From a virus: DNA of 35,050 bases. Under the pieces are notes generated by a model that had not been told where the DNA came from, did no database searches, and was given only the letters and a program-made list of their open reading frames with translations. The position numbers and the translations under genes were made by a program. This document shows, piece after piece, positions 404-33,726 of this stretch. Each line of letters opens with the position of its first letter. Positions within the stretch are counted from its first letter, which is position 1. The stretch lies in the UHGV virus genome UHGV-0197915. One strand, written 5' to 3'.

Positions 404-412
404 ATCCGTTTC

Positions 413-499
413 GCTGAAAAACATAACCCATAAAATGCTAGCTGTACCAGGAACCACCTCCTTAGCCTGTGTAATCTCCCTTACACGGGCTTATTTTTT
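413..499 (+). ncRNA. cyaR: CyaR (RyeE) Hfq-dependent small RNA
   Basis: GCTGAAAAACATAACCCATAAAATGCTAGCTGTACCAGGAACCACCTCCTTAGCCTGTGTAATCTCCCTTACACGGGCTTATTTTTT matches the CyaR sequence as I recall it; terminator hairpin plus T-tract at the 3' end. Confidence 0.85.
478..499. repeat. attL core (22-bp direct repeat CCCTTACACGGGCTTATTTTTT), overlapping the cyaR terminator
   Basis: Identical to 33547-33568; flanking bases differ on both sides. Confidence 0.75.
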
Positions 500-559: not shown

Positions 560-563
560 CGAT

Positions 564-2407
564 CGAGTAGGAGGCGGGATCACTCCCGCCGTCCTCTCAC
601 ACCACCGTACATGCGGCTCCGCATACGGCGGTTCATGTTAACACTGGAACTGCCTCTGCTGTTCCAGCAGTGATATCAGACCCTGCCTGCTGAACCACGC
701 ATTCTTTATCGCCTGATTCATATGGCTTGACCCTGAGTTCCACCATGGCCCGTGGTTGTTGTACGCTGAGATCATCGCCCTGTCCTTACTCAGCCCCGCT
801 CTTTGCAGGTTCTTCGTCCGGGTTCCCGGCCTCTTCCACTGCCGCCACAACAGGCACCGCAGTTTCCGTTTGATCCAGCCGTCCAGCTCTTCCTGCACTC
901 CTCTGACTTCCGTCAGCCTGAAGTAGCTTATCCATCCACGCAGCACTGGCGTCAGGGCATTGATTGTCGCTTTCACTGATTTGCTCCGGTTTCCCGTGGT
1001 CAGACTGCGGACTTTCTCCTTCAGCCTGTTCACGCTCGTCAGGGCTATTTTCAGCTTCGCCTGTTTGTGCCATGTCACACTGTACCCGAGGAACTTCCGC
1101 TCCCACGGGCGCGCCACCGCGCTCTTCTTCTCATTCACCTTCAGTTTCATTTTGTTCTCCACGAACGCCCTGATGTTCTTCAGCAGATGGTCGCCCGCTT
1201 TCCGGCTGCTTACGTTGATGTTGCAGTCGTCTGCGTAGCGGCAGAAGCTGTGTCAACGACGCTCCAGTTCTTTATCCAGTTCATCCAGCAGGATGTTCGA
1301 CAGTAACGGCGACAGCGGGCCGCCCTGCGGCATGCCCGCCTGTCCTTTATCGTTCTGGCCAGACGCGTCATCAGGAGCCTGTGATCCACCCGGTCAAAGA
1401 ACTTCTCCAGATCCATATCCACCACCCACCGTTTGCCGCCCCGTATGTAACGCTGTGCCTGTTGCACCGCCTGCCATGCGTTGCGCCCCGGCCGGAAGCC
1501 GTAGCTGGAGTCTGAGAAGCTTTTGTCCACGATGGCACTTAACTGCTGCGCAATCGCCTGCTGGATAAGCCTGTCCACCACCGTCGGGATGCCTAAGGTT
1601 CTCACGCCGCCATCCGGCTTCGGGATATCCATCCGGCGTATTGCCCGCGGCTGGTAGTTTCCGTCAATCAATGCCTGCCTGACACTGCGCCAGTTCTTCT
1701 TCAGCCACGGTTTCAACTCCGCCACGCTGAGGTTATCCACCCCCGCCGCGCCTTTGTTTTCCACCACGCGCTGATAAGCCAGCATCAGGTTTTCTCTCGT
1801 TATCACCGCTTCCATCGTCAGCGGCACTTCCGCTTTCGTTTGCCCACCCGCCGCCGTGCTGATTTCAGCGCCATCATGCAGCCCTGACGGATACCGTCCG
1901 TCTCCTCTGCCGCTGGCCGCAGTTGCCTGCGCTTGTGCTTCATTAATCATCATCGGGTTCGGATGTCCTAATCACGGTTAATCATGTTCGGCCCTTCATG
2001 CTGCCGGTTTTGCAGCACTACTACGGCGTCGGCTGACTTCTGCCGCCCCATCCCGGCACCTTACGACGCCGGTAGCACACTGGCAGGACGGCAGTTCTCC
2101 CGGGGTAATTCGCGCGACTTTCCTGCTTATGCCTGTCGGCTCTACGTTACAGCGTTCCGTGTGAGTATCGGGCTTTGGTGATGTATGCCACCTTACCCCG
2201 CTGCGCCGCCTTAACCGCTTCCTGTTCGTCAGGCCAGCATTTTGCATCCGGCTTCCTTCAGATTTCACCTCGCGATGAACACCCTTGCCTTCCGCTAACA
2301 CTTCCCCTCACCGGGTGTGTGGAGGACTTTCACCTCTTAGTCGTTCTTCAGCCACCACAGTTGAAGAACAGCGCCAGTCACGGCGCTACGCGCCATGCCC
2401 GGCGCAC
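564..2407 (-). mobile_element. Group II intron (bacterial class C-like placement), degenerate
   Basis: 5' end GTGCG (reverse complement of 2403-2407) 8-9 nt after a terminator hairpin; domain V-like hairpin near 605-640; RT/maturase ORF inside; intron-free version of the 3' flank present at 33601-33620. Confidence 0.7.
638..1953 (-). pseudogene. Group II intron-encoded reverse transcriptase/maturase, disrupted
   Basis: RT domains 0-4 in ORF 1210-1953; frame breaks near 1331-1345 where ~25 aa before the xPQGGxLSPLL motif are missing; in-frame TGA at 1253-1255 before the YADD motif; maturase domain continues in ORF 638-1162. Confidence 0.75.
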
Positions 2408-14572: not shown

Positions 14573-15154
14573 TTATTTTCCACAAACCATATTATCTATC
14601 GCGGCCATATAGGATACAAACAGATCTACATAACCACTTACGTCAGTGAGACTAATATCATTTGCATTGTCGTTATGATGAATAATGTTATTTCTCTTTA
14701 CAACCACTGCATTCACAACATCCTTATTCGCATTAAATTCCGCCGAATTCAAAAGATTAACACCCAAATAAGAAAATGCCTTAATCGTCTTGTAAGGATT
14801 ACCAGATAGGCTATCCGACACCTCACTTTTATCAACCTTTAAATCAGCATCTATATATTTCAACTCCTTATCTTTAACATCTTTTTTGACTCGCCAAAGC
14901 AAAAAATTGTGTGGCAAGCAGGCTGCTTTAAGCCTGCGATTGATGGTATCGCAGTGCCATGTTGCAACCTCAGTCAAATACGACTCTAAATAAGTGCAGA
15001 GTGTAATAAGATACGATTTAACAAAAAAATTAATGTTCTTATTGAAGAATTCATTTTCCTCAAGGATAGCCTGTTGCTCCGTCTCCTTAATAATTTCTTT
15101 TAAGGATAAAAATAATGAACGATATCCATCATAGTATTCAGTATTTTCCATCAA
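14573..15154 (-). CDS. HEPN-like protein (RNxxxH motif), predicted RNase-type effector
   Basis: 193 aa, AT-rich; KRNNIIHH matches the HEPN Rx4-6H signature; overlaps the upstream DUF262 gene by 17 nt. Confidence 0.5.
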   Translation of the reverse strand: MMENTEYYDGYRSLFLSLKEIIKETEQQAILEENEFFNKNINFFVKSYLITLCTYLESYLTEVATWHCDTINRRLKAACLPHNFLLWRVKKDVKDKELKYIDADLKVDKSEVSDSLSGNPYKTIKAFSYLGVNLLNSAEFNANKDVVNAVVVKRNNIIHHNDNANDISLTDVSGYVDLFVSYMAAIDNMVCGK

Positions 15155-16187
15155 TAACTTCCTTAAGAAGTGCCACCCAACTAGCCCTACGCTTCATCAC
15201 CGAACTCTTATTCTGTAGCCCACCTGATAAAGTTTTTTTGAACTCAGCACTTGAACAAAGAGTAAACCAAGCATTCCGTATTTGTTCGGACTTTTCATTT
15301 ACAATATCATCATTTAACTTGCCAATTGTAGGCATTAAAATGTCATAATGAACTAACCCTTTACGTTTTCTCCTAACTGTAGGGTTTGTAAATACATCTT
15401 CACCAAATATTTTTTCACACTTAGATAATGATGTTTTGAATCTCTCCCTCATAATATTCAGTTCATCATCTTTTAAGTCTGAAAATTTTTCCATATGATC
15501 ATCCAAGAATTCTTTCAAGGAGCTATCAAAGTAATCAAAAAAGTTATCTTCATAAAATGCAAAAAAACGCAAAACTTGTTCGTCTGGCTCACGACTATCT
15601 CTTTTTACTGTAGTTGTTTCCGCCAAACCAAAATTTTTAATGGCATCAATATTACCTAACTCTTCTAATAATTCATCAAACCCTCCCGGATATAACGCAT
15701 GTCTTATTTCTTGGTCAGAAAGTTTAACTGCCCCCTGATTGAGTCTAGAAAATATCTCTCTTATTAATTTTTTGGGATTTTCTTTTCTTAGAACAATGCA
15801 TCTTATTGTTGTCGACTCTAACTCTGAACGTAGAGATCCTAATTCAGAAAACTTTTTCCCTTCAAGCTCTTTAAATGTAGTCATTCCCTCCAAAGCGAAC
15901 TCGTCATCAAAAAATTTCTGTATTGTGGTTAATCGCTGAACACCATCAATTACAATATGATTGCCGCTATCATCTTCTGCAAAGTAACAAGATGGAAGAG
16001 GAATACGCATTAAACAAGATTCAATGAATTTTGAAGATCGCAGCCATCCGTCCTGATCCCATTTGTACTTTCTTTGAAAGTCTGGATTCAGTTTTAGTTT
16101 GATGGGATTGGACTTCATCCTAGAACATAAAGTCTCAAATGGATAATCTATGGGGAATAAATTCAATGTTTTATCATCGTTAGACAT
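15138..16187 (-). CDS. DUF262 (ParB/GmrS-like NTP-binding) domain protein
   Basis: 349 aa; N-terminal PDFQRKYKWD … IDGVQRLTT motifs characteristic of DUF262; AT-rich cargo gene between S and V. Confidence 0.6.
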   Translation of the reverse strand: MSNDDKTLNLFPIDYPFETLCSRMKSNPIKLKLNPDFQRKYKWDQDGWLRSSKFIESCLMRIPLPSCYFAEDDSGNHIVIDGVQRLTTIQKFFDDEFALEGMTTFKELEGKKFSELGSLRSELESTTIRCIVLRKENPKKLIREIFSRLNQGAVKLSDQEIRHALYPGGFDELLEELGNIDAIKNFGLAETTTVKRDSREPDEQVLRFFAFYEDNFFDYFDSSLKEFLDDHMEKFSDLKDDELNIMRERFKTSLSKCEKIFGEDVFTNPTVRRKRKGLVHYDILMPTIGKLNDDIVNEKSEQIRNAWFTLCSSAEFKKTLSGGLQNKSSVMKRRASWVALLKEVIDGKY

Positions 16188-18655: not shown

Positions 18656-19161
18656 CAGATTTGCCCGACAATACAGCGCGGCTTGTCCTGAATACGCGCC
18701 ACAGACCAGCGCATATCCCGCCACAGTTCATCGATAACCGCCTCGGTGCTTTCCGCCTTGCGGTCGCCTTTTGCCGTCGCATCGATGCCGCGATAGCGTT
18801 CAAACAGCGTTGCACTGGTCATGGCGCAGACGGCGCGGAAATAGTGGAAACAGCGCACGCTTTCACCGTCGATATCATCGGCAGGCACATCTGCCAGCGT
18901 CTGATAACCTGCGGCCATCTGGTCAACCCGCCACAGGGCAAGCTCTGCATTGGTTTCGGCCATACCGGCTTTAATCGCATCATTCAGGCGCAGCGGGGAA
19001 ACGGTCTGCTCCAGACGCATCAGCTCACGCACGCGCTTCGGATCAACATCAGGAAAAAAGAAGGTGTTTTTAATTACCGGCTCGCTCACGCCCGGTGGCG
19101 GTATCACCACGCCCGGCACGTCCTGCGGCTCTTTTTTTGGCTCAATAATCACTGTCGTCAT
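18655..19161 (-). CDS. L: Head completion protein gpL
   Basis: Start at MTTVIIEPKK (169 aa, the P2 L length). Confidence 0.8.
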   Translation of the reverse strand: MTTVIIEPKKEPQDVPGVVIPPPGVSEPVIKNTFFFPDVDPKRVRELMRLEQTVSPLRLNDAIKAGMAETNAELALWRVDQMAAGYQTLADVPADDIDGESVRCFHYFRAVCAMTSATLFERYRGIDATAKGDRKAESTEAVIDELWRDMRWSVARIQDKPRCIVGQI

Positions 19162-19258: not shown

Positions 19259-20011
19259 TTAACCTGCGGCTTTTGCCGCTTTCGGGGGACGCCCGCGCCG
19301 TGCCGCCGGTTTAGCGGCACGGCGCGGGCGCGGTTTATTCTGTTTGGGTGCGGGTTCTGGTTTGGGTTTCAGCGCGCGTTCAAGCTGCTCAATATCCTTT
19401 TTCACACCGATAGCCCGCTCTAACTGGATCGCTCGCTGCAGGTGCGCCAGCGCGTCAGTCAGGTTGCCAGCATCACGCAGCACGTAGCCGGTGATTTTGT
19501 GCAGCTTCGCGCGCACGATATCGGGCATATCTGCGCGTTCGGTCAGTGCGATGGTGTCGAGCAGGAGCGACAGCCCGACAGGCTGTTTTGCATCAAGCAG
19601 GCGCTGCGCTGACAGGGCGACCTCTTCGGCCAGCAGATAGTGCGTTGTGCGGCGGTGGCCGCCGGTCGGCATGGTCAGGCCATACGTCATCGCGTAGCGG
19701 GCGATTTCCAGCGCACCGGCAATGTCATCAGCATCAAGACGCCAGAGCATGACGGTCATGACAATGTCATCCTGCGCCCCTTTGCCGGAGCTGAGAACGC
19801 CACCCACCCACGGCAGATAAAACGGTAGCAGCTCACGCTTTTTGTCTGCCTTGCGCTCATTGGAACGGATTTGTTTTAACGTGCGACAGTCTGCGGCCAG
19901 CTTGACGAGCATCTGCTCATAGGCAGTTGCATTGCGCAGCGGAGCAGCAGCCCGCCGCGCAGTTTCAGAGGCCGAGACCCGCATCATGTGACGCGCTGCG
20001 GGACTCGTCAT
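19259..20011 (-). CDS. M: Terminase small (endonuclease) subunit gpM
   Basis: 250 aa at the P2 M position. Confidence 0.8.
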   Translation of the reverse strand: MTSPAARHMMRVSASETARRAAAPLRNATAYEQMLVKLAADCRTLKQIRSNERKADKKRELLPFYLPWVGGVLSSGKGAQDDIVMTVMLWRLDADDIAGALEIARYAMTYGLTMPTGGHRRTTHYLLAEEVALSAQRLLDAKQPVGLSLLLDTIALTERADMPDIVRAKLHKITGYVLRDAGNLTDALAHLQRAIQLERAIGVKKDIEQLERALKPKPEPAPKQNKPRPRRAAKPAARRGRPPKAAKAAG

Positions 20012-22163: not shown

Positions 22164-23933
22164 ATGACCATTTCGACTGACCTCTCCCTTTTACATGACC
22201 CGCGACGACAGGCGCGTCTGTTGTTCTGGCAGGGATTTTCCGTGCCACAAATCGCCGACACGCTGCAGGTCAAGCGCCCGACCGTGCAGAGCTGGAAACA
22301 GCGCGACGGGTGGGAGGAAACCGCCCCGCTTAACCGCGTGGAAACGACGCTCGAGGCGCGCCTGATTCAGCTGTATGCAAAGCCTGACCTGACACCGCAT
22401 GACTTCAAGGTCGCTGATTTTTTGTCGCGCCAGATGGAGCGATTCGCGCGCATCAACCGCTACGGCCAGACCGGAAACGAGGTGGATTTAAACCCCAGTA
22501 TTGCCAGCCGTAATAAGGGCGATCGCCGTAAGCCGAAACGGAATTTTTTCAGCGATGAGGCCATCGAAAAGCTGGAAGAGATTTTCCTCGACCAGTCCTT
22601 TGAGTATCAGCTCAACTGGCACAAGGCCGGTATCGCGCACCGTATTCGCCACATCCTCAAATCACGCCAGATTGGCGCGACATTTTACTTTGCCCGCGAG
22701 TCATTGCTGCGCGCCCTCAAAACCGGGCAAAACCAGATATTTTTATCCGCCAGTAAGACGCAGGCTTACGTGTTCCGAAAGTACATCATCGCCTTTGCAC
22801 GCATGGTCGACGTCGACCTGTCAGGCGACCCGATTGTCATCGGCAATAACGGCGCAGAGCTGATTTTCCTCGGGACAAACTCCAACACCGCGCAGAGCCA
22901 CAACGGCGACCTGTATGTCGATGAAATCTTCTGGATCCCCAACTTTCAGAGGCTGCGCAAAGTGGCGTCGGGGATGGCGTCACAGTCCCACCTGCGCACC
23001 ACCTACTTTTCAACACCCTCAACGCTGGCACACGGTGCGTATCCGTTCTGGTCAGGTGAGCTGTTTAACCGGGGACGCATCAGCGCGAGTGAGCGCGTCG
23101 ACATCGATATCAGTCACAAGGCGCTCGCCGGTGGGGTGTTATGCCCGGACGGACAGTGGCGGCAGATTGTCACCATCGAGGACGCCCTCGCCGGAGGATG
23201 TACGCTGTTTAATCTGGATCAGCTGAAACAGGAAAACAGCGCCGACGACTTTCGCAACCTCTTCATGTGCGAGTTCGTCGACGATAAAGCGTCTGTATTT
23301 CCGTTCGAGGAGCTGCAGCGCTGCATGGTCGATGCGATGGAAGAATGGGAAGACTTTGCACCGTTCTCTGACCGTCCGTTTAACTGGCGCCCGGTCTGGA
23401 TTGGCTATGACCCGTCACACACCGGCGACAGTGCTGGCTGTGCGGTACTGGCTCCGCCGCTGGTTGCCGGTGGCAAGTTCCGCATCCTTGAGCGTCACCA
23501 GTGGAAAGGGATGGATTTTGCAACGCAGGCCGAGGCTATCCGCGAGCTGACAGAGAAATATTGCGTCGAGTATATCGGCATCGATGCAACCGGCATCGGC
23601 CAGGGGGTTTACCAGCTCGTGCGCTCCTTCTTTCCGGCAGCCCGCGCCATTCGCTACACGCCGGAAATGAAAACCGCGATGGTGCTGAAAGCGAAAGACA
23701 CCATCCGACGTGGGTGTCTGGAATATGACGCCGGTGCAACCGACATCACGCAGTCGTTTATGGCGATTCGTAAAACCATGACCAGCAGCGGGCGCAGTGC
23801 CACCTATGAGGCCAGCCGCAGCGAAGAGGCCAGCCACGCGGATATTGCGTGGGCGACCATGCACGCCCTGTTAAATGAGCCACTTTCCGCCGGTAGCGGC
23901 ATGCAATCAACCTCAATTCTGGATATTAACTAA
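22164..23933 (+). CDS. P: Terminase large (ATPase) subunit gpP
   Basis: ATG at 22164 preceded by GAGG; the ORF track start at 22134 is a TTG and less likely. Confidence 0.85.
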   Translation: MTISTDLSLLHDPRRQARLLFWQGFSVPQIADTLQVKRPTVQSWKQRDGWEETAPLNRVETTLEARLIQLYAKPDLTPHDFKVADFLSRQMERFARINRYGQTGNEVDLNPSIASRNKGDRRKPKRNFFSDEAIEKLEEIFLDQSFEYQLNWHKAGIAHRIRHILKSRQIGATFYFARESLLRALKTGQNQIFLSASKTQAYVFRKYIIAFARMVDVDLSGDPIVIGNNGAELIFLGTNSNTAQSHNGDLYVDEIFWIPNFQRLRKVASGMASQSHLRTTYFSTPSTLAHGAYPFWSGELFNRGRISASERVDIDISHKALAGGVLCPDGQWRQIVTIEDALAGGCTLFNLDQLKQENSADDFRNLFMCEFVDDKASVFPFEELQRCMVDAMEEWEDFAPFSDRPFNWRPVWIGYDPSHTGDSAGCAVLAPPLVAGGKFRILERHQWKGMDFATQAEAIRELTEKYCVEYIGIDATGIGQGVYQLVRSFFPAARAIRYTPEMKTAMVLKAKDTIRRGCLEYDAGATDITQSFMAIRKTMTSSGRSATYEASRSEEASHADIAWATMHALLNEPLSAGSGMQSTSILDIN

Positions 23934-23934
23934 G

Positions 23935-24942
23935 ATGAAAAAACGACAGAAGAAACCCGCCACAATGACCGCCAGCGCACCGCAAAAAATGGAGGCGTTT
24001 ACCTTTGGTGAGCCGTCCCCCGTTCTGGATCGCCGCGACATCCTCGACTATGTCGAGTGCATCAATAACGGGAAATGGTACGAGCCGCCGGTCAATTTCT
24101 CGGGACTGGCAAAAAGCCTGCGCGCCGCCGTTCACCACAGCTCGCCGATTTACGTGAAGCGTAACATTCTGGCGAGCACCTACATTCCGCACCCGTTGCT
24201 GTCGCGTCAGGATTTCAGCCGTCTTGTGCTCGATTATCTGGTCTTTGCCAACGGCTATCTTGAGAAGCGCATGAGCGTCACCGGCCAGCTATTAAAACTG
24301 GAAACCTCCCCGGCCAAATACACCCGCCGGGGTGTCGAGGATGGCGTTTACTGGTACGTATCGAGCTACACCCAGCCGCACCCGTTCGCGCCCGGCTCGG
24401 TGTGTCATCTGCTTGAGCCCGATATCAATCAGGAACTTTACGGGATGCCGGAATACCTGAGCGCACTCAATTCAGCCTGGCTGAATGAATCCGCCACGTT
24501 ATTTCGTCGTAAGTATTACCAGAACGGGGCGCACGCGGGGTATATCATGTATGTCACCGACGCGGCACAGAGTAGCACCGACGTTGAATCGCTCCGTAAC
24601 GCGATGCGCGACTCAAAAGGGCTGGGGAATTTTAAGAACCTGTTTTTCTACGCGCCCAACGGAAAGCCAGACGGGATCAAGATTGTGCCGTTGAGTGAAG
24701 TCGCCACGAAGGATGATTTTTTCAACATCAAAAAGGTCAGTGCCGCTGACCTGCTCGATGCGCACCGCGTGCCGTTTCAGCTGATGGGCGGCAAGCCGGA
24801 AAACATCGGCTCAATGGGTGACGTTGAGAAGGTGGCGCGGGTGTTTGTGCGTAACGAGCTGACGCCATTGCAGGAGCGTTTCAAAGAGATTAACGACTGG
24901 CTTCAAGAAGATGTAATACAATTTGAAAAATATTCTATTTAA
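23935..24942 (+). CDS. Q: Portal protein gpQ
   Basis: ATG at 23935 directly after the P stop; 335 aa. Confidence 0.85.
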   Translation: MKKRQKKPATMTASAPQKMEAFTFGEPSPVLDRRDILDYVECINNGKWYEPPVNFSGLAKSLRAAVHHSSPIYVKRNILASTYIPHPLLSRQDFSRLVLDYLVFANGYLEKRMSVTGQLLKLETSPAKYTRRGVEDGVYWYVSSYTQPHPFAPGSVCHLLEPDINQELYGMPEYLSALNSAWLNESATLFRRKYYQNGAHAGYIMYVTDAAQSSTDVESLRNAMRDSKGLGNFKNLFFYAPNGKPDGIKIVPLSEVATKDDFFNIKKVSAADLLDAHRVPFQLMGGKPENIGSMGDVEKVARVFVRNELTPLQERFKEINDWLQEDVIQFEKYSI

Positions 24943-24983
24943 AACAAAATGAGAAAAGGTGCGTCATTTTAAATAACGCACCT
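24941..24983 (-). terminator. Rho-independent terminator downstream of the kinase/phosphatase cassette (hairpin shared with the Q 3' end)
   Basis: AGGTGCGT…ACGCACCT 8-bp stem followed on the minus strand by TTTCTCATTTTGTTTT. Confidence 0.5.
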
Positions 24984-24994
24984 ATATTACAAAA

Positions 24995-25705
24995 CTAAAT
25001 TTCAAAAATAATCAATGAATAATTATCCCTAGTCTCTCTACTCTCAACAAGCTCTATTACACTAGCACCATACTCATTTAACGAATTATATTTCACTGAA
25101 AGATCTCGGAAATCTTTTTTGCTCACAACTGACGAAACCCCGTCAGATAGCAAAGCTATTCTATCACCTATCTGTAAATTACATTCAAATTCATGGACTT
25201 GTAGAGGCTTGTGTGCACCAAGGGCACTATCAAGAATGTTCTTACGAGGGTAATCAACTGCAGTCTCTTTCGTCAGCTTACCTTCACGTAGTAGACGAGC
25301 TACTTCACTGTGATCATAGGAAAGTTGTTTGACGCCACTTCCTCTTAATAGATAAGTCCGAGAATCTCCACAATTGGCTCCTATCAATTTATTCCCGATA
25401 AGCTTTGTTACAGTCACAGTACTTGCCATTCCAGCCAATTTTCCATCTTTCTGAGCAGCATCTTTGATCGCTTCATCAGCTCGGGTTATGGCTTCGAGAA
25501 GAGAGATGCTACTATCCGAACGCATGGCCGCAGCAATAATGTCCAGTGCTAATTGAGAGGCTGTTTCTCCCCCCAAATTCCCGCCGACACCATCCGCAAC
25601 GCCACATAACAAATCAGCGCTGGGTAAAATCTCAACCAAGATAGAGTCTTGGTTGTGGCTTCTAGGTCCCGGAGATGTGTAAGCAAATTTATTAATCAAT
25701 GGCAT
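24995..25705 (-). CDS. PP2C-family Ser/Thr protein phosphatase
   Basis: 236 aa with GVADGVGG, GDSR and SDGV motifs; AT-rich; start overlaps the kinase stop by 10 nt. Confidence 0.7.
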   Translation of the reverse strand: MPLINKFAYTSPGPRSHNQDSILVEILPSADLLCGVADGVGGNLGGETASQLALDIIAAAMRSDSSISLLEAITRADEAIKDAAQKDGKLAGMASTVTVTKLIGNKLIGANCGDSRTYLLRGSGVKQLSYDHSEVARLLREGKLTKETAVDYPRKNILDSALGAHKPLQVHEFECNLQIGDRIALLSDGVSSVVSKKDFRDLSVKYNSLNEYGASVIELVESRETRDNYSLIIFEI

Positions 25706-27027
25706 ACTCTTTGTATCATTGCGAAAAGTTCAGGATGAAGCATATCAGGTGTGGCACCAATTGATCTTTGGAGATGACTCACCGCTGCACACATTCTACC
25801 CTCAAGTATGCTCATTTCCAAAGCAAGCCTTTTAGCCAGTTCTGGAGTCATGTCGTGCCCTGCCACGCTCATGAAGCGTCTCTCGACATACCAACGATTA
25901 TGCGACGTTCCCATAAGAAGCATAGCTATAATAATTTCGGCTTTACAGTTCAAATCGTGAAGTTGTAAAAATTGTTCGAGACGAGTGCAAATCCCATCAC
26001 ACTGTTCGAATGAAAATACTCCATCCGCAACCCAACGACCATATGCTTCACCAAGACGACAAGCTAGCGTGGTATCATGAGCGATTATCTCATTAATCCT
26101 GTTTAAAGTTAGACGCTGAAATATCACCTTGGAGTTTTCTTGTCCAATATTATCCTCTACGAAATTGATTATTTCCCTCCATGTTTCAACATTAATTCCG
26201 GCGTCACTATCTAATGCTGTAGTATATGTTCCAACCTCAGCAGAGAGATGTATTACTGTAGAAGGATCAATACTAAGAATTGCATCCCTTAATGCTGCAA
26301 CACTTGGAAATCTTCTTGAAGGATCTCTACGAGTACAAACCCGTAAAATATGCGCATATGCGCTCGAATCATTATTAATTTCACCACAAGGAATTCTTTC
26401 ATCCGTGCCTACAAAGTCATGCAGTATACACCCCAAAGAATAAATATCTGAAGCAATACTAGCTTTTCTAAGATCTGAAACAATTTCAGGTGCGGTGTAG
26501 TAATCAGAACCCATTTTCATACCTGTATGGGTTAGTGCTGAAATTTGAGTATCTTTTACTGACATCAGGCCAAAGTCGCTAATAGCGTAATATGGACCTT
26601 CACTTGAATCAAATCTAAGCACATTTTGTGGTTTGAGATCACGATGATAAATTTGCAACGTGTGCAATTCTTCGAGTCCAGACAAAATATCCATTATTGC
26701 TCTTAAAAATAATCCATTCAAGTTTCTACTTTGCGCAATATCTTTATCAAGGCTAGATGCTGCTACTGGCATAAGGAAAGATGGAGGGTTACTATTTAGA
26801 TCTTTAAAAAGGACAGGTACAATATTTTTATGCGTAAGTCTATACTGTACGTTTGCCTCTCTTATAAATCTTTTTTTTACATTCTCTGCCAAATCAGGAG
26901 GCAGCGGTTGAGCTTGATTTATAGAAAATGTTTTCCTAGCGAATTGCTTTCCGCTAAGGACATCTTGCACTAAATCAACATTACCAAAACCGCCACTACC
27001 TATCCGTCTAACTTCATTAATCACCAT
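25696..27027 (-). CDS. Eukaryotic-like Ser/Thr protein kinase with ~180-aa C-terminal domain of unknown function
   Basis: 443 aa with GSGGFGNV glycine loop, HRDLKPQN catalytic loop, DFG and APE motifs; AT-rich. Confidence 0.75.
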   Translation of the reverse strand: MVINEVRRIGSGGFGNVDLVQDVLSGKQFARKTFSINQAQPLPPDLAENVKKRFIREANVQYRLTHKNIVPVLFKDLNSNPPSFLMPVAASSLDKDIAQSRNLNGLFLRAIMDILSGLEELHTLQIYHRDLKPQNVLRFDSSEGPYYAISDFGLMSVKDTQISALTHTGMKMGSDYYTAPEIVSDLRKASIASDIYSLGCILHDFVGTDERIPCGEINNDSSAYAHILRVCTRRDPSRRFPSVAALRDAILSIDPSTVIHLSAEVGTYTTALDSDAGINVETWREIINFVEDNIGQENSKVIFQRLTLNRINEIIAHDTTLACRLGEAYGRWVADGVFSFEQCDGICTRLEQFLQLHDLNCKAEIIIAMLLMGTSHNRWYVERRFMSVAGHDMTPELAKRLALEMSILEGRMCAAVSHLQRSIGATPDMLHPELFAMIQRVCH

Positions 27028-27116
27028 ATTGTGCCCCTTGCCTTTTTTGAGATAATTCTGAATTATTCTTTTTGATAATACTAAAAAAAATGAAATTTAA
27101 AACCCCTCAGCGCGCA

Positions 27117-27135
27117 ATGCTATCCCCGCCTCGCC
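27117..27135 (-). other. cos site (19-nt cohesive-end sequence GGCGAGGCGGGGATAGCAT on the minus strand)
   Basis: Minus strand reads GGCGAGGCGGGGATAGCATTGCGCGCTGAGGGG, a near match to the P2 left end (GGCGAGGCGGGGAAAGCAC…) as recalled. Confidence 0.7.
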
Positions 27136-27417
27136 TGCCCGCTTTATGGGTCGGTTTTAATGCAGTTGCATGACCACTCTGGATCCGCGCTAGCTCTGGC
27201 GGCGCACGGCCAGAACGGGCATCCCCAACGCATGCAAAACAATGCACCTGTTGCATGCACGGCTAAAAAACCGGGAAATTGTGGGAAAATGGCATAATAA
27301 AACCTGCTTTAATCGTTCCGGTTGGGGGTGATCTCTACGGGACAGGCTAACGCCTCGCGGGGCTCGTTGGTCAACCCCGCTGGCACTGAAAACAAGTTTC
27401 AGCACCGGCGGCGTTTG

Positions 27418-27651
27418 CTATGGCTTCGCCATATTTGATGGCCGAAACGCCTCAATTTTCGGATTGCTGATATCGCTGTATTTGCGGTGATTATCCCGGA
27501 CGACACCGGCACACCCGACCAGTTCGTCAGGGGTCAGATTCTCGTTAATCATAATTTGTTGCAGGCGATGCACGACGGCCATCAGCTTAATGTTTTGCGT
27601 TGAATGTACGGGCGGCACTGGCATCATTCGCATATGACTCATTTTAACCAC
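27418..27651 (-). CDS. Hypothetical protein (77 aa)
   Basis: ORF overlapping the upstream gene stop; no recognisable motif. Confidence 0.35.
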   Translation of the reverse strand: MVKMSHMRMMPVPPVHSTQNIKLMAVVHRLQQIMINENLTPDELVGCAGVVRDNHRKYSDISNPKIEAFRPSNMAKP

Positions 27652-28103
27652 CCATTTTTTTTAGCATCTGCGACCAGCTTGTCGGAATATTGCCAGACAC
27701 CATCACAAGCGACATAAGCCCCCCCCGAAACGCCGTTAAGTGTTTCAAATCCAATAGCCAGCCCTAACGGGTGTAGAATTTCGTGATTAATTCTGAAAAC
27801 AAGCCCCTTCTCGCTTAACTCTTTCCAGTTCATTAGGGACATACCGCACTTGACATCTGGCATCATTAACTGAAAACTCAGCATCACATAATTTTCCGCC
27901 CATTCAGATAAATCAGTAACGTATGTCACCCTCACTGATACACGTTTCCCGGTATATCCGTTTACCGGTTCCCATTCATGCAACCCGAGAATATCACCGC
28001 TAGAATAATCGCGGTTATTGAGACGAAATTCAGCACGTTTTTCCTGAGATATCACAGCGTTAAAATGCTCAGGTGCAATTTTTAACTCATGGATTTTGCT
28101 CAT
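27639..28103 (-). CDS. DUF3850/ASCH-like domain protein with extra C-terminal domain
   Basis: Start MSKIHELKIAPEHFNAVISQEKRAEFRLNNRDY… resembles DUF3850; ATG overlaps the gene A stop (TAATG) and is preceded by AGGAG. Confidence 0.55.
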   Translation of the reverse strand: MSKIHELKIAPEHFNAVISQEKRAEFRLNNRDYSSGDILGLHEWEPVNGYTGKRVSVRVTYVTDLSEWAENYVMLSFQLMMPDVKCGMSLMNWKELSEKGLVFRINHEILHPLGLAIGFETLNGVSGGAYVACDGVWQYSDKLVADAKKNGWLK

Positions 28104-30391
28104 TATTTCCACTCCTCTTGAATTGAGAATCCCGGCCACTCATCAGCAGCCGCGTATTTGAATTTTTTATCGCCATAAATCACCGTTGCCCCACGCACCA
28201 GCGCTTCGAGCTCCCACCGTTCCGGGGTAATGCCCTCCTGAGCCAAATCGAAACGAATTTTCGCCACGCGATCCCTTTCTGGTTTTGTCATCCTGGCTGA
28301 TGGAGCTTGCTCACTCGTTTTGAGTAGCGCATTGCTTCTTTGCTGGCGATTTTTGCGAGGGATGCCAGCTCTTAACGCACCGTTAAGCGCCTTCATGACG
28401 TCTGGCTCATTCCATCCGATAACTCCGCGCTCAATCAGATTTAACACCGCTGCGGCTTGCTCAGACGGTGTGGGTGTCATAACTGGAGTATCACCGTCGG
28501 TGAGCTTTCCACAGTTATTGACAGGACTCCGAGGCGCGGCAGCGCCGCTTTTTAAGGTCAAAGGCTCAACGGCCAAAACCTTTGGAACTATGCGCCATTC
28601 CGCTGTACGGGTTACATGTACGCGGCTCGCCCCAAGATGAGGGGCATAAATACCGACCACTTTCTCGATATCCTCCTCGTATTCGTTTACCTCATCCGTC
28701 ACCTTACGGGCGACCCTGACCACCTGAGCATCACGCGGCATGTTTGCCCCACCCTGCGCGCTGATGTACAGGTCAAATTCCCCCTCATCTGCAGCAGCCC
28801 GGACGGCCTCGACACGGTCGTCAAACTCGCTGGCGATACTCACCCCGCGCGGCAGCTTACGCAGTTCGCGGTAAGCGCCCATTGTCGGGAGGCCAATCGG
28901 TTTAAACTGAGGGATACGCCATGTAGACGCCCATGCGGTTACGGCTGCGGCCGTATCTTTCAGAGGTTTGCCGGTATCGTGATCGAGCTGACCGTCAAGC
29001 GCGTAGCCGTCGATATTTTTGGCAATGTATTTGGCGATATAACCCGCCGCGCCCCCCTGATTAAGGTGACGCGACTCAAAGCGCTGTTTTGCCGCGCCCT
29101 TTTCGTGTCCGTCCTCTTTGAGGGCATAACGACGCATAATTTCGTTGATAGCTTTACGCTGACCGAGTTTGCAAAAAAGCATCATATGCCAGTGTGGCGT
29201 GCCGTCGTGGTGCGGCTCGACAACGCGCATCCCATACACTTCCAAATCGTTATCTTTGAAAGCGGTACGCATCAGGCTCCAGATTCGGCACAGATAGCGC
29301 TGGCCGTTTTTAGGGGTGAATGCGGTTTCGTTCCAGCCGTGATTGAGCTGCACCGTTTTGCTGTCACCTTTGCCGACCTGTCGGGTCGGGTGATACTTCG
29401 ACGGCGTGGTCAGCGTGATAAACATTCCCACATCACCAACGCTGGCCGCATAGCGTTCAATTCCGGCAATGGTATTCATCAGCTCCATACGGCGTATTTC
29501 AGGGTTTGAAATACTCCCCATGACTTTACTGATGAGGTCGATACGTTCGCCGGTAACTTTGTTTTCCAGCTCACAGGATTTCAGGTATTCGAGATTAGCC
29601 AGCCGGCGCGAGTGAACCTCGCGGATCGCCATTTTGCTGGCGTAAGGTGAACGGTCTTTGTTGACTTCACCGGCAGCGATAAGCAGCGCCTCACGCCAGC
29701 GCATACGCTGCGCCTTGAGCTGGTTAACCCACCAATCATCTTTTATCAGACGGGAAATAGCGGAAAACGCCATGCGGATCGTCATCTGACCCTTACGGTA
29801 TTTTTTCCAGTAGAGCGGGGTTAAGTTGAACGCGCGTGCAACACCAGCCACCTGACCATATATGTGCACCTGCGCCTCATCGGTGAAAAGGGTCTCTTTA
29901 CCGCCGAATGCCTCAGCCCATTCGTCGCTGAGTTCCTCGTATTTACGCCAGAGCTGCGCGGCAATTCTGGCCGCAAATTTTTTCAGCTCTTTGTCATTCA
30001 TATCAGGCAAGCGCGCATATTCGTCATGCTCAGACAAGAAACCAATCGACGCAGATTCATTCATCCCGCACAGCTCGTTAACGCGCTCAAGACGCGGCAA
30101 CAGCTTCCGCTCAAAGGTGTTTTTCAGGAAATAGAGCGCCCCGAGCGGGCTCTTTGTGCGGCGAATGAAGTTATAACGGGAAGTAAACAACGTCTTAAGA
30201 AAGAAAGGCAGGCGGTCAATCCGGTATAAAACACCTTGCACCTGACGGAATTCGGCACGTGTAAGGGGTCTGTCACGGCCAATGGCAGCGCGGGGAGCAT
30301 TCCAGGGATAAGCACCAACGAAAGTATCGCCGGTGCGCTTAGATATTGGCAGGGCTAGCGAGGGGGCAATACGCCCCCGAGTCTCAACGGC
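28103..30391 (-). CDS. A: Replication initiation protein gpA (rolling-circle nickase)
   Basis: Start at MAVETRGRIAPS…; strong similarity to P2 A throughout as recalled; 762 aa. Confidence 0.85.
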   Translation of the reverse strand, partial: AVETRGRIAPSLALPISKRTGDTFVGAYPWNAPRAAIGRDRPLTRAEFRQVQGVLYRIDRLPFFLKTLFTSRYNFIRRTKSPLGALYFLKNTFERKLLPRLERVNELCGMNESASIGFLSEHDEYARLPDMNDKELKKFAARIAAQLWRKYEELSDEWAEAFGGKETLFTDEAQVHIYGQVAGVARAFNLTPLYWKKYRKGQMTIRMAFSAISRLIKDDWWVNQLKAQRMRWREALLIAAGEVNKDRSPYASKMAIREVHSRRLANLEYLKSCELENKVTGERIDLISKVMGSISNPEIRRMELMNTIAGIERYAASVGDVGMFITLTTPSKYHPTRQVGKGDSKTVQLNHGWNETAFTPKNGQRYLCRIWSLMRTAFKDNDLEVYGMRVVEPHHDGTPHWHMMLFCKLGQRKAINEIMRRYALKEDGHEKGAAKQRFESRHLNQGGAAGYIAKYIAKNIDGYALDGQLDHDTGKPLKDTAAAVTAWASTWRIPQFKPIGLPTMGAYRELRKLPRGVSIASEFDDRVEAVRAAADEGEFDLYISAQGGANMPRDAQVVRVARKVTDEVNEYEEDIEKVVGIYAPHLGASRVHVTRTAEWRIVPKVLAVEPLTLKSGAAAPRSPVNNCGKLTDGDTPVMTPTPSEQAAAVLNLIERGVIGWNEPDVMKALNGALRAGIPRKNRQQRSNALLKTSEQAPSARMTKPERDRVAKIRFDLAQEGITPERWELEALVRGATVIYGDKKFKYAAADEWPGFSIQEEWK

Positions 30392-30659
30392 CATCAGCAC
30401 AAAACGCGGTCTGACATTGCAGTCCCAACTGCTCGACCTGCTCACCCAACGCCGCAAAACTATCAGCACCGCCATTTAAAAGGTCATGTAGCACCAGACC
30501 AGAAATCAGTTTTTGAATCGTCGGGTAATACCCGACAGTATCAAGCCATTCGCTACCTTCATTTTTTCCAGCAGTCGCCACTTTCTTTTCCTGCAAAATG
30601 AACTGGTAGCGATCGCTTGTAACTACATACTGATGATTTATCTCGATACGGATACTCAT
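30384..30659 (-). CDS. Hypothetical protein (91 aa)
   Basis: Small ORF between B and A, overlapping the A start; no recognisable motif. Confidence 0.45.
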   Translation of the reverse strand: MSIRIEINHQYVVTSDRYQFILQEKKVATAGKNEGSEWLDTVGYYPTIQKLISGLVLHDLLNGGADSFAALGEQVEQLGLQCQTAFCADGR

Positions 30660-33546: not shown

Positions 33547-33568
33547 CCCTTACACGGGCTTATTTTTT
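33547..33568. repeat. attR core (22-bp direct repeat CCCTTACACGGGCTTATTTTTT)
   Basis: Identical to 478-499. Confidence 0.75.
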
Positions 33569-33726
33569 ATGCATAAGCCCTATCCCTGGTCACCGTCTTC
33601 CATTGACCACATCGATAGAATCTCCCTTCATAGCACGATGCCTTTCACGTAACGGCATCGTGCTCGCACAGGTTCCGGCTAAGCACAACCAGAACGCGCA
33701 TGTTTGACGCTTACCAAAAAATATTC

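What the first reader, a model, noticed from the sequence alone, without database searches (positions are those of the whole stretch)
27117..27135. cos site identified on the replication-gene side of the kinase cassette
The 19-nt sequence GGCGAGGCGGGGATAGCAT followed by TGCGCGCTGA is a near match to the P2 cohesive end as I recall it. The kinase/phosphatase insert therefore sits between cos and Q, while the usual tin/old position beyond gene A holds only two small genes.
Basis: partly seen in the sequence, partly recalled or inferred. Interest (0 to 1): 0.4.

Follow-up and report, generated by a model that had tools for sequence, protein, structure and literature searches.

The report
P2-type cos site beside defence cargo
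The flagged 19 bases are the DNA-packaging cut site (cos) of a complete P2/186-like prophage of E. coli, and the kinase/phosphatase genes sit between it and the portal gene, a cargo slot known in this phage family since the 1990s, so the finding is correct but ordinary.

Summary
Confirmed. Window 27117-27135 (minus strand) reads GGCGAGGCGGGGATAGCAT. It occurs once in the window and none are expected by chance. It matches the annotated cohesive ends of P2 and of 186 at 17 of 19 bases each. It lies in the conserved 55-bp cos core (27110-27164), which matches 186 at 52/55, P2 at 49/55 and P4 at 48/55. The deposited right ends of phages 186 and EtG align exactly to base 27136.

The placement is not unusual. 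More than 500 bp separates cos from Q in 25 of 93 viral contigs and 12 of 41 species-representative genomes, often holding recognisable defence genes. The literature already calls cos-to-Q a hotspot (Dodd & Egan 1996 and Nakayama 1999, as cited by Askora 2017). This exact gene arrangement is listed in Rousset 2022, Table S5A.

Conservation stops 7 bp left of the overhang, in P4 as well, which explains why cargo can abut cos.

One minor extra: the foreign block (about 24903-27103) includes a low-GC rewrite of the last 13 codons of Q.

The parts
27117..27135 (-). The 19-nt cohesive-end sequence GGCGAGGCGGGGATAGCAT. The predicted top-strand nick is between 27136 and 27135, and the bottom-strand nick between 27117 and 27116, giving 5' overhangs.
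   Evidence: The nick geometry comes from the 186 annotation ('top strand cut at 5' end and bottom strand cut at 3' end'). The 186 and EtG record ends align to 27136.
27110..27164 (-). The 55-bp conserved cos core: 29 bp of right arm, the 19-mer, and TGCGCGC.
   Evidence: Identity is 52/55 to 186, 49/55 to P2 and 48/55 to P4. The right-arm part was not in the search pattern, yet it is strongly conserved across 119 unique sequences. The existence of a '55-bp core' (Ziermann & Calendar 1990) is as cited in PMC5694545. Its mapping to these exact coordinates is my inference from the P2/P4 alignment.
27136..27417 (-). The non-coding cos right arm on the replication-gene side. It carries repeated TGCAT/GCATGCAA motifs (27165-27172, 27230-27237, 27250-27258), which are candidate terminase recognition elements.
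   Evidence: It is about 88% identical to the last 283 bp of phage 186 and about 91% identical to Yersinia and Klebsiella P2-like phages. Conserved islands lie at -36..-1 and -113..-94 relative to the nick. The terminase role is inferred.
27028..27109 (-). The left flank of cos. TGAGGGG is still P2-like; it is followed by an AT-rich (GC 0.23) leader upstream of the kinase gene, which is the start of the foreign block.
   Evidence: Homology of 248 E. coli genomes stops at about 27110. No sigma-70 consensus site was called here, so a promoter is only presumed.
25696..27027 (-). A Hanks-type Ser/Thr protein kinase of 443 aa. It has the GSGGFG, HRDLKPQN, DFG and APE motifs and an uncharacterised C-terminal half.
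   Evidence: Pfam Pkinase, E = 1e-28. PADLOC gives kinase-domain hits to mad6, PD-T4-6 and Stk2 models. RefSeq protein WP_029392161.
24995..25705 (-). A PP2C-family protein phosphatase of 236 aa, overlapping the end of the kinase gene by 10 nt.
   Evidence: Pfam PP2C_2, PP2C and SpoIIE. RefSeq protein WP_029392160.
24957..24983 (-). A terminator-like hairpin followed by a T-run, at the end of the cassette.
24903..24942 (+). The last 13 codons and the stop codon of portal gene Q, rewritten in AT-rich DNA (GC 0.21) with the amino-acid sequence conserved. This is the Q-side junction of the foreign block.
   Evidence: Nucleotide homology to the closest Q genes ends at 24902.
23935..24942 (+). Portal protein gene (P2 Q / 186 W homologue).
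   Evidence: Pfam Phage_portal; RefSeq annotation.
22164..23933 (+). Terminase large (ATPase) subunit gene, the P2 P homologue.
   Evidence: Pfam Terminase_6N, Terminase_6C and Terminase_5; RefSeq annotation.
19259..20011 (-). Terminase endonuclease subunit gene, the P2 M homologue.
   Evidence: RefSeq annotation 'terminase endonuclease subunit'.
27418..27651 (-). A small hypothetical ORF of 71-77 aa. It is the only gene in the classic tin/old slot.
   Evidence: No Pfam or PADLOC hit.
27639..28139 (-). DUF3850/ASCH plus DUF7415 protein, the homologue of P2 Orf91.
   Evidence: Pfam. P2 orf91 is itself annotated as DUF3850.
28103..30475 (-). Replication endonuclease gene A.
   Evidence: Pfam Phage_GPA, E = 9e-109.

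Best explanation
This is the cos site of a complete P2/186-like (Peduoviridae) prophage of E. coli KV7. The expected sequence of events is as follows. The prophage excises at its att repeats and replicates using protein A. The phage terminase (P plus M) then recognises cos, mainly through the 55-bp core and roughly 115 bp of conserved right arm on the gene-A side. It nicks the two strands 19 nt apart, and the genome is packaged through portal Q. The linear virion DNA would begin at window 27135, with the kinase start codon about 90 nt from the left end, and would end at 27136. Sequence-specific requirements stop about 7 bp to the left of the overhang, so foreign DNA can sit directly against cos. 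Here a low-GC block of about 2.2 kb (kinase, PP2C, its own terminator and a recoded Q 3' end) has replaced the usual roughly 170-bp cos-to-Q spacer. It occupies the left half of the known A-to-Q hotspot. What is shown: sequence identity, position, gene context, the asymmetry of conservation and the recurrence of the slot. What is inferred: actual cleavage, the terminase contacts, the cassette promoter and a defence role for the cassette.
For: Match to cos: 17/19 to both annotated cos 19-mers, and 49-52 of 55 in the core. The site is unique in the window. Record ends of 186 and EtG align to 27136, and many phage records start on the first G. The exact 19-mer also occurs in other P2-like contigs.

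Intact phage: all P2 core genes, including terminase P and M and portal Q, are annotated as intact. The att repeat at 478-499 and 33547-33568 gives about 33.09 kb, against 33.59 kb for P2.

Asymmetric cos: conservation is high in the right arm and vanishes after position +26. P4, which P2 terminase packages, shares only CGCGCGC on the left.

Recurrent slot: a different cassette (DUF3696 plus a hypothetical) sits in the same slot in E. coli WCHEC005784. More than 500 bp separates cos from Q in 25/93 IMG/VR loci and 12/41 GTDB loci. That cargo includes a retron RT-Toprim, a type IIG restriction-modification enzyme and a PD-T4-4/HEC-02-like ATPase. A kinase homologue 77% identical at protein level also abuts cos in another contig.

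Foreign origin: cassette GC is 0.39 against 0.52 for the window.

Literature: the cos-to-Q hotspot, the A-to-Q hotspot and this exact arrangement.
Against: No experimental data exist for this prophage; cleavage, inducibility and virion production are untested. Position 13 of the 19-mer (T here) differs from both P2 and 186, although this variant is common among relatives. No consensus promoter was detected between cos and the kinase gene. The defence role of the cassette rests only on kinase-domain similarity, and the PP2C gene has no PADLOC hit.
Confidence: 0.9

Rival explanations
1. The sequence is a true cos homologue but no longer works. On this view the prophage is a fixed, defective element, and replacing the cos-to-Q spacer and the Q 3' end inactivated packaging.
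For: Nothing here shows induction. The native tQ/tW terminator and spacer are gone, and the last 13 codons of Q are replaced. A group II intron with a broken RT gene also sits in the prophage.
Against: All core genes are annotated as intact. The Q C-terminal amino acids are preserved despite recoding. The cos core diverges no more than P2 and 186 do from each other. The same architecture recurs in about a quarter of P2-like elements across many genera. P4 is packaged with an equally short left flank. Genome length fits a P2 capsid.
Confidence: 0.08
2. The match is a chance GC-rich resemblance, and the real packaging site lies elsewhere in the prophage.
For: The degenerate 26-nt pattern also hit a few actinobacterial genomes with no P2 genes, so short GC-rich patterns can match by chance in very large databases.
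Against: Zero matches are expected in the window. The unsearched flanks are conserved over about 280 bp with 186. The position between A and Q is exactly that of cos in P2 and 186. No second candidate exists in the window.
Confidence: 0.01
3. The cos belongs to a P4-like satellite or a satellite-phage hybrid rather than to the P2-like phage, because cargo immediately to the left of cos is the P4 arrangement.
For: P4 has the same local layout: conserved right arm, cos, then an AT-rich cargo region (gop, beta) transcribed away from cos.
Against: cos here is flanked by the P2 A/orf91 genes and by Q/P, and no psu, sid, delta or alpha genes are annotated in the window. No nucleotide sharing was found between the left flanks of 152 P2-like and 57 P4-like loci.
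Confidence: 0.01

Closest known systems
cos of coliphage 186 (NC_001317 positions 1-19, plus the last ~283 bp of the genome)
   Same: The 19-mer matches at 17/19 and the core at 52/55. The right arm is about 88% identical over 283 bp, and the record end coincides with the predicted nick.
   Different: 186 has only 177 bp between cos and the portal gene W, and carries tum and orf97 on the A side. Here the A side is nearly empty and 2.17 kb of cargo lies on the portal side.
cos of coliphage P2 (NC_001895 cosL 1-19, cosR 33575-33593)
   Same: The 19-mer matches at 17/19, the left flank TGCGCGCTGA is identical, and the core matches at 49/55. The gene order A ... cos ... Q is the same.
   Different: P2 carries its cargo (tin, old) between orf91 and cos and has a 168-bp cos-to-Q spacer. 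Outside the core, the P2 right arm is not similar to the one here.
cos of satellite P4 (NC_001609)
   Same: The core matches at 48/55. Homology on the left ends after 7 bp and is followed directly by AT-rich cargo genes transcribed away from cos.
   Different: P4 is a satellite without A, Q or P. No cargo is shared with P2-like left slots in my sample.
The cos-to-Q ('left arm') hotspot of P2-like phages: retrons Ec67/Ec86 in 186-related prophages (Dodd & Egan 1996), ctx of phiCTX (Nakayama 1999), ORF1-4 of phiRSY1 (Askora 2017, PMC5694545)
   Same: Foreign genes replace the DNA between cos and the portal-gene terminator. My survey found a retron RT-Toprim in this slot in L064.
   Different: The cargo here is a Ser/Thr kinase plus PP2C pair. 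The replaced block also takes in the terminator and the last 13 codons of Q.
The P2 gpA-gpQ 'cos-proximal' defence hotspot (Rousset et al. 2022, PMC9122126; PMC13586616)
   Same: It is the same locus. The arrangement DUF3850 + hypothetical + Pkinase + PP2C, with the same RefSeq protein accessions, is listed in Table S5A.
   Different: In the passages I read, those studies treat the A-to-Q interval as one locus and do not say on which side of cos the cargo lies. No phenotype is reported in the main text for the related system pFR102 (phosphatase + kinase + kinase) listed among the systems evaluated for defence (Table S2).

Membership tests
P2/186-type (Peduoviridae) cos site | A 19-nt cohesive-end sequence of the form GGCGNGGCGGGGANAGCAY | tested here: met
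   GGCGAGGCGGGGATAGCAT matches P2 at 17/19 and 186 at 17/19.
P2/186-type (Peduoviridae) cos site | A conserved 55-bp core around the cohesive ends, shared by P2, 186 and P4 | tested here: met
   Identity is 49/55 to P2, 52/55 to 186 and 48/55 to P4. The core is cited in PMC5694545.
P2/186-type (Peduoviridae) cos site | Position between the replication gene A region and portal gene Q, in a genome that encodes the cognate terminase (P, M) | tested here: met
P2/186-type (Peduoviridae) cos site | Terminase cleavage producing 19-nt 5' overhangs at this site in virion DNA | not testable with these tools
   This needs sequencing of virion ends. The only indirect support is that the ends of the 186 and EtG records align to 27136.
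cos-to-Q cargo hotspot of P2-like phages | Variable, unrelated gene content at the same position in otherwise syntenic phages | tested here: met
   WCHEC005784 carries DUF3696 plus a hypothetical gene in this slot. The spacer exceeds 500 bp in 25/93 and 12/41 loci, with diverse cargo.
cos-to-Q cargo hotspot of P2-like phages | Cargo that is compositionally foreign to the phage backbone | tested here: met
   GC is 0.39 against 0.52 here, and 0.33-0.48 in 20 other loci.
Kinase-based anti-phage systems (Stk2, PD-T4-6, mad6) | Full-length similarity to a validated system protein, not just to the catalytic domain | tested here: inconclusive
   PADLOC hits cover only the kinase domain (residues ~6-230 of 443). 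The PP2C gene has no hit.
Kinase-based anti-phage systems (Stk2, PD-T4-6, mad6) | Demonstrated protection against phage | not testable with these tools
   The arrangement is only catalogued.

The most novel reading that the evidence does not exclude
Cargo in the cos-to-Q slot may circulate as 'cos-to-Q modules' with two built-in homology arms. One arm would be the 55-bp cos core. The other would be a low-GC recoded version of the last ~13-15 codons of the portal gene. Swaps would then occur by homologous recombination among P2-like phages only. P4 satellites share just the cos arm and would be left out. On this reading the kinase/PP2C pair would be an untested phospho-signalling abortive-infection system carried by such a module.
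Probability: 0.3. Interest if true: 0.35.

Novelty: already known. Interest (0 to 1): 0.15.

Why it matters
Placing cos correctly fixes the virion map of this prophage. It shows that the known A-to-Q hotspot has two sub-slots, one on each side of cos, and that this phage uses the portal-side one. That matters for practical work: when annotating P2-like prophages, cloning hotspot cargo, or building P2/P4 cosmids, one should know that nothing to the left of cos+7 bp is conserved. The biology is otherwise textbook P2/186 packaging plus a catalogued, untested candidate defence cassette.

Tried and rejected
1. Primary papers. I tried to read Ziermann & Calendar 1990 and Odegrip 2006 directly; neither is held. 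The 55-bp core is therefore cited second-hand, and its coordinates are inferred from my P2/P4 alignment.

2. Cassette promoter. I looked for a sigma-70 promoter between cos and the kinase gene. None was called, so the cassette promoter remains unproven.

3. Exchange with P4. I tested whether P2-like left-slot cargo is shared with P4-like hotspots, using blastn of the left flanks of 152 P2-like against 57 P4-like loci. There were no hits of 300 bp or more. This agrees with PMC13586616.

4. Distribution of the cassette. It is present in 1 of 5,426 complete E. coli genomes (KV7 itself) and in no phage record at megablast level. IMG/VR holds one identical copy and one 77%-identical copy.

5. Small ORFs. 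The 71-aa ORF at 27190-27405 inside the right arm has no family hit and lies in a region that is non-coding in 186, so I treated it as spurious.

6. Pattern specificity. The genome scan also returned actinobacterial and other loci with no P2 or P4 marker (28 of 120). These were excluded as chance matches or truncated loci.

7. Rfam. The scan found nothing in the cos or cassette region.

Full report
**1. Observation**

With up to three mismatches the 19-mer occurs once in the window. None of 100 dinucleotide-preserving shuffles contains it. The P2 19-mer hits only this site at up to five mismatches; the 186 19-mer also has one 5-mismatch match at 18987-19005. The P2 55-bp core hits only here.

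**2. Identity as a cos site**

- The RefSeq records of P2 and 186 annotate their first 19 bases as the cohesive end. The window matches each at 17 of 19.
- The flanks match as well. Taking 29 bp to the right, the 19-mer and 7 bp to the left (window 27110-27164), identity is 52/55 to 186, 49/55 to P2 and 48/55 to P4. P2 and 186, both experimentally characterised, share only 48/55.
- This 55-bp block is exactly the stretch shared by P2 and P4 in my alignment. It fits the '55-bp core sequence' of Ziermann & Calendar 1990 as cited in PMC5694545. I could not read the original paper.
- A blastn of the region against 50,697 phage records aligns the last base of the linear 186 record (30624) and of Erwinia phage EtG (30413) to window 27136.
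- Many phage records (P2, Wphi, L-413C, fiAA91-ss, R18C, SEN4/5, HQ103 and others) begin at base 1 on the first G of the 19-mer.
- Using the 186 annotation of the cut geometry, the predicted nicks lie between 27136 and 27135 on the window's minus strand and between 27117 and 27116 on the plus strand.

**3. Context**

- The window is 100% identical to E. coli KV7 (NZ_LT795502.1), isolated from pig faeces in Denmark.
- RefSeq annotates a complete P2-like prophage: integrase, repressor, cox, A, portal, both terminase subunits, and the scaffold, capsid, lysis, tail, D and ogr genes.
It gives a genome of about 33.09 kb, against 33.59 kb for P2.
- Pfam confirms A, a DUF3850 protein (P2 orf91 is itself annotated DUF3850), Pkinase, PP2C, the portal and the large terminase.
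- In P2 orientation the order is: A, orf91 homologue, a 71-77 aa ORF, 282 bp of non-coding right arm, cos, about 90 bp of AT-rich leader, kinase, PP2C, a terminator hairpin, then Q and P on the opposite strand.
One of the 'two small genes' is a conserved backbone gene, not cargo.

**4. Why cargo can touch cos**

I scanned IMG/VR with GGCGNGGCGGGGNNAGCAYYGCGCGC and retrieved 120 loci. Of these, 102 are P2-like and 15 P4-like, judged by tblastn markers.

Across 119 unique sequences the right arm was not part of the pattern, yet it is strongly conserved from -36 to -1 (TGCAACTGCATTAAAACCGNCCCNNAAAGCGGGCN). A second conserved island lies at -113 to -94 (GGTGCAT...TTTGCATGCG). Conservation to the left collapses immediately after +26.

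P4 is packaged by P2 terminase (PMC9122126). It shares only CGCGCGC to the left of the overhang before its AT-rich gop region starts.

The window carries the TGCAT-type repeats in its right arm. I infer that terminase recognition lies in the core plus the right arm, and that the left side is free for cargo. This is comparative inference, not a binding assay.

**5. How usual the placement is**

- In the IMG/VR sample the distance from cos to the Q stop codon is 150-260 bp in 62 of 93 P2-like loci (168 bp in P2, 177 bp in 186). It is 260-500 bp in 6 loci, over 500 bp in 25 and over 1 kb in 20.
- An independent scan of one genome per GTDB species gave 28 of 41 compact, 12 of 41 over 500 bp and 9 of 41 over 1 kb. 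The occupied loci came from Pectobacterium, Citrobacter, Rahnella, Pantoea, Serratia, Mixta, Erwinia and Scandinavium.
- In the window the distance is 2,174 bp.
- Cargo in this slot is AT-rich (GC 0.33-0.48). 28 of 34 ORFs point away from cos towards Q.
- The cargo includes a retron-type RT-Toprim, a type IIG restriction-modification enzyme, a HEC-02/PD-T4-4/AriA-like ATPase, a PifA-like protein and PDC-S02.
- When the left slot holds more than 1 kb, the A-to-cos distance is shorter: median 1,078 bp against 2,613 bp (Mann-Whitney p = 0.003). This is consistent with a shared packaging budget.
- A close relative in E. coli WCHEC005784 has DUF3696 plus a hypothetical gene in the same slot.

**6. 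What is already published**

[quoted passage not shown] - Rousset et al. 2022 define the gpA-gpQ 'cos-proximal' hotspot.
- Their Table S5A lists DUF3850/ASCH + hypothetical + Pkinase + PP2C with the accessions WP_029392163/62/61/60. Three of the four (…163, …161, …160) are the accessions RefSeq gives these KV7 genes; the small hypothetical now carries a newer accession.
- Both the site and the placement are therefore known.

**7. The cassette**

- GC is 0.39 against 0.52 for the window.
- The kinase has the Gly-loop, HRDLKPQN, DFG and APE motifs. The phosphatase has the PP2C DGxGG and DG motifs.
- PADLOC hits (mad6, PD-T4-6, Stk2, MkoA) cover only the kinase domain, and the PP2C has no hit.
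- I therefore regard it as a candidate Stk2-like abortive-infection pair in which the phosphatase restrains the kinase. That is inference only.
- The cassette occurs in 1 of 5,426 complete E. coli genomes.
- A 77%-identical homologue also sits directly against cos in another P2-like contig. Homology at about 70% nucleotide identity runs from cos through the cassette into Q.

**8. A small extra**

Nucleotide homology to the closest Q genes (89% identity) stops at window 24902, which is 40 nt inside Q. The last 14 codons have GC 0.21, yet they still encode the conserved C-terminus.

Across the IMG/VR loci, the last 15 codons of Q are more AT-rich when the left slot is occupied: mean GC 0.39 against 0.48. 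Relative to the gene body the difference is -0.127 against -0.045 (p = 1e-4).

This suggests that cargo blocks often bring their own Q 3' end, so that the cos core and the Q 3' end act as recombination arms. I found no nucleotide sharing between P2-like and P4-like left flanks, in line with PMC13586616.

**9. Verdict**

The feature is an ordinary P2/186-type cos with cargo in a known hotspot. Whether this particular cos is cut has not been tested and needs end mapping of virion DNA.

Noticed in passing
window 14573-16187 (-): There is a second cargo block in the prophage: a DUF262-domain protein plus a HEPN-domain protein (GC 0.34). It lies between the S-type virion morphogenesis gene and baseplate gene V, the P2 orf30 position. 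It is probably another defence-type insertion.
   Followed up: partly
window 562-2279 (-): Rfam finds a group II intron (domains D1-D4 at 1991-2279, and the 3' domain at 562-633). RefSeq marks its RT/maturase ORF as a pseudogene with an internal stop. It lies inside the prophage, between the ogr side and the att repeat.
   Followed up: partly
window 411-496 (+); repeats at 478-499 and 33547-33568: The CyaR (RyeE) sRNA gene overlaps the 22-bp att repeat CCCTTACACGGGCTTATTTTTT. The prophage is therefore integrated at the 3' end of cyaR, between yegQ and yegR, and regenerates that end.
   Followed up: partly
window 24903-24942 (+): The last 13 codons of portal gene Q are recoded in AT-rich DNA (GC 0.21) with a conserved protein sequence. 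The same trend holds across 20 other loci that have cargo between cos and Q (p = 1e-4).
   Followed up: yes
L251 818-4155 (IMGVR_UViG_643886054_000003): A diverged copy of the kinase/PP2C cassette (kinase 77% identical at protein level) also abuts a cos (GGCGTGGCGGGGATAGCAT TGCGCGC) in another P2-like contig. The cassette has therefore been in this slot for some time.
   Followed up: partly
L006 5580-8341 (E. coli WCHEC005784, NZ_CP028578.2): A closely related prophage has a different two-gene cassette (a DUF3696 protein plus a 370-aa hypothetical) in the same cos-to-Q slot. Its 19-mer is GGCGAGGCGGGGTAAGCAT, and its Q 3' end is also AT-rich.
   Followed up: partly
window 27137-27151 and the conserved right arm -23..-2: A short inverted repeat (ACCCATAAAGCGGGC) directly abuts the top-strand nick. 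It is present in variant form in P2, 186 and P4. The terminator scan flags it on the opposite strand. Its role, if any, in terminase action is unknown.
   Followed up: no
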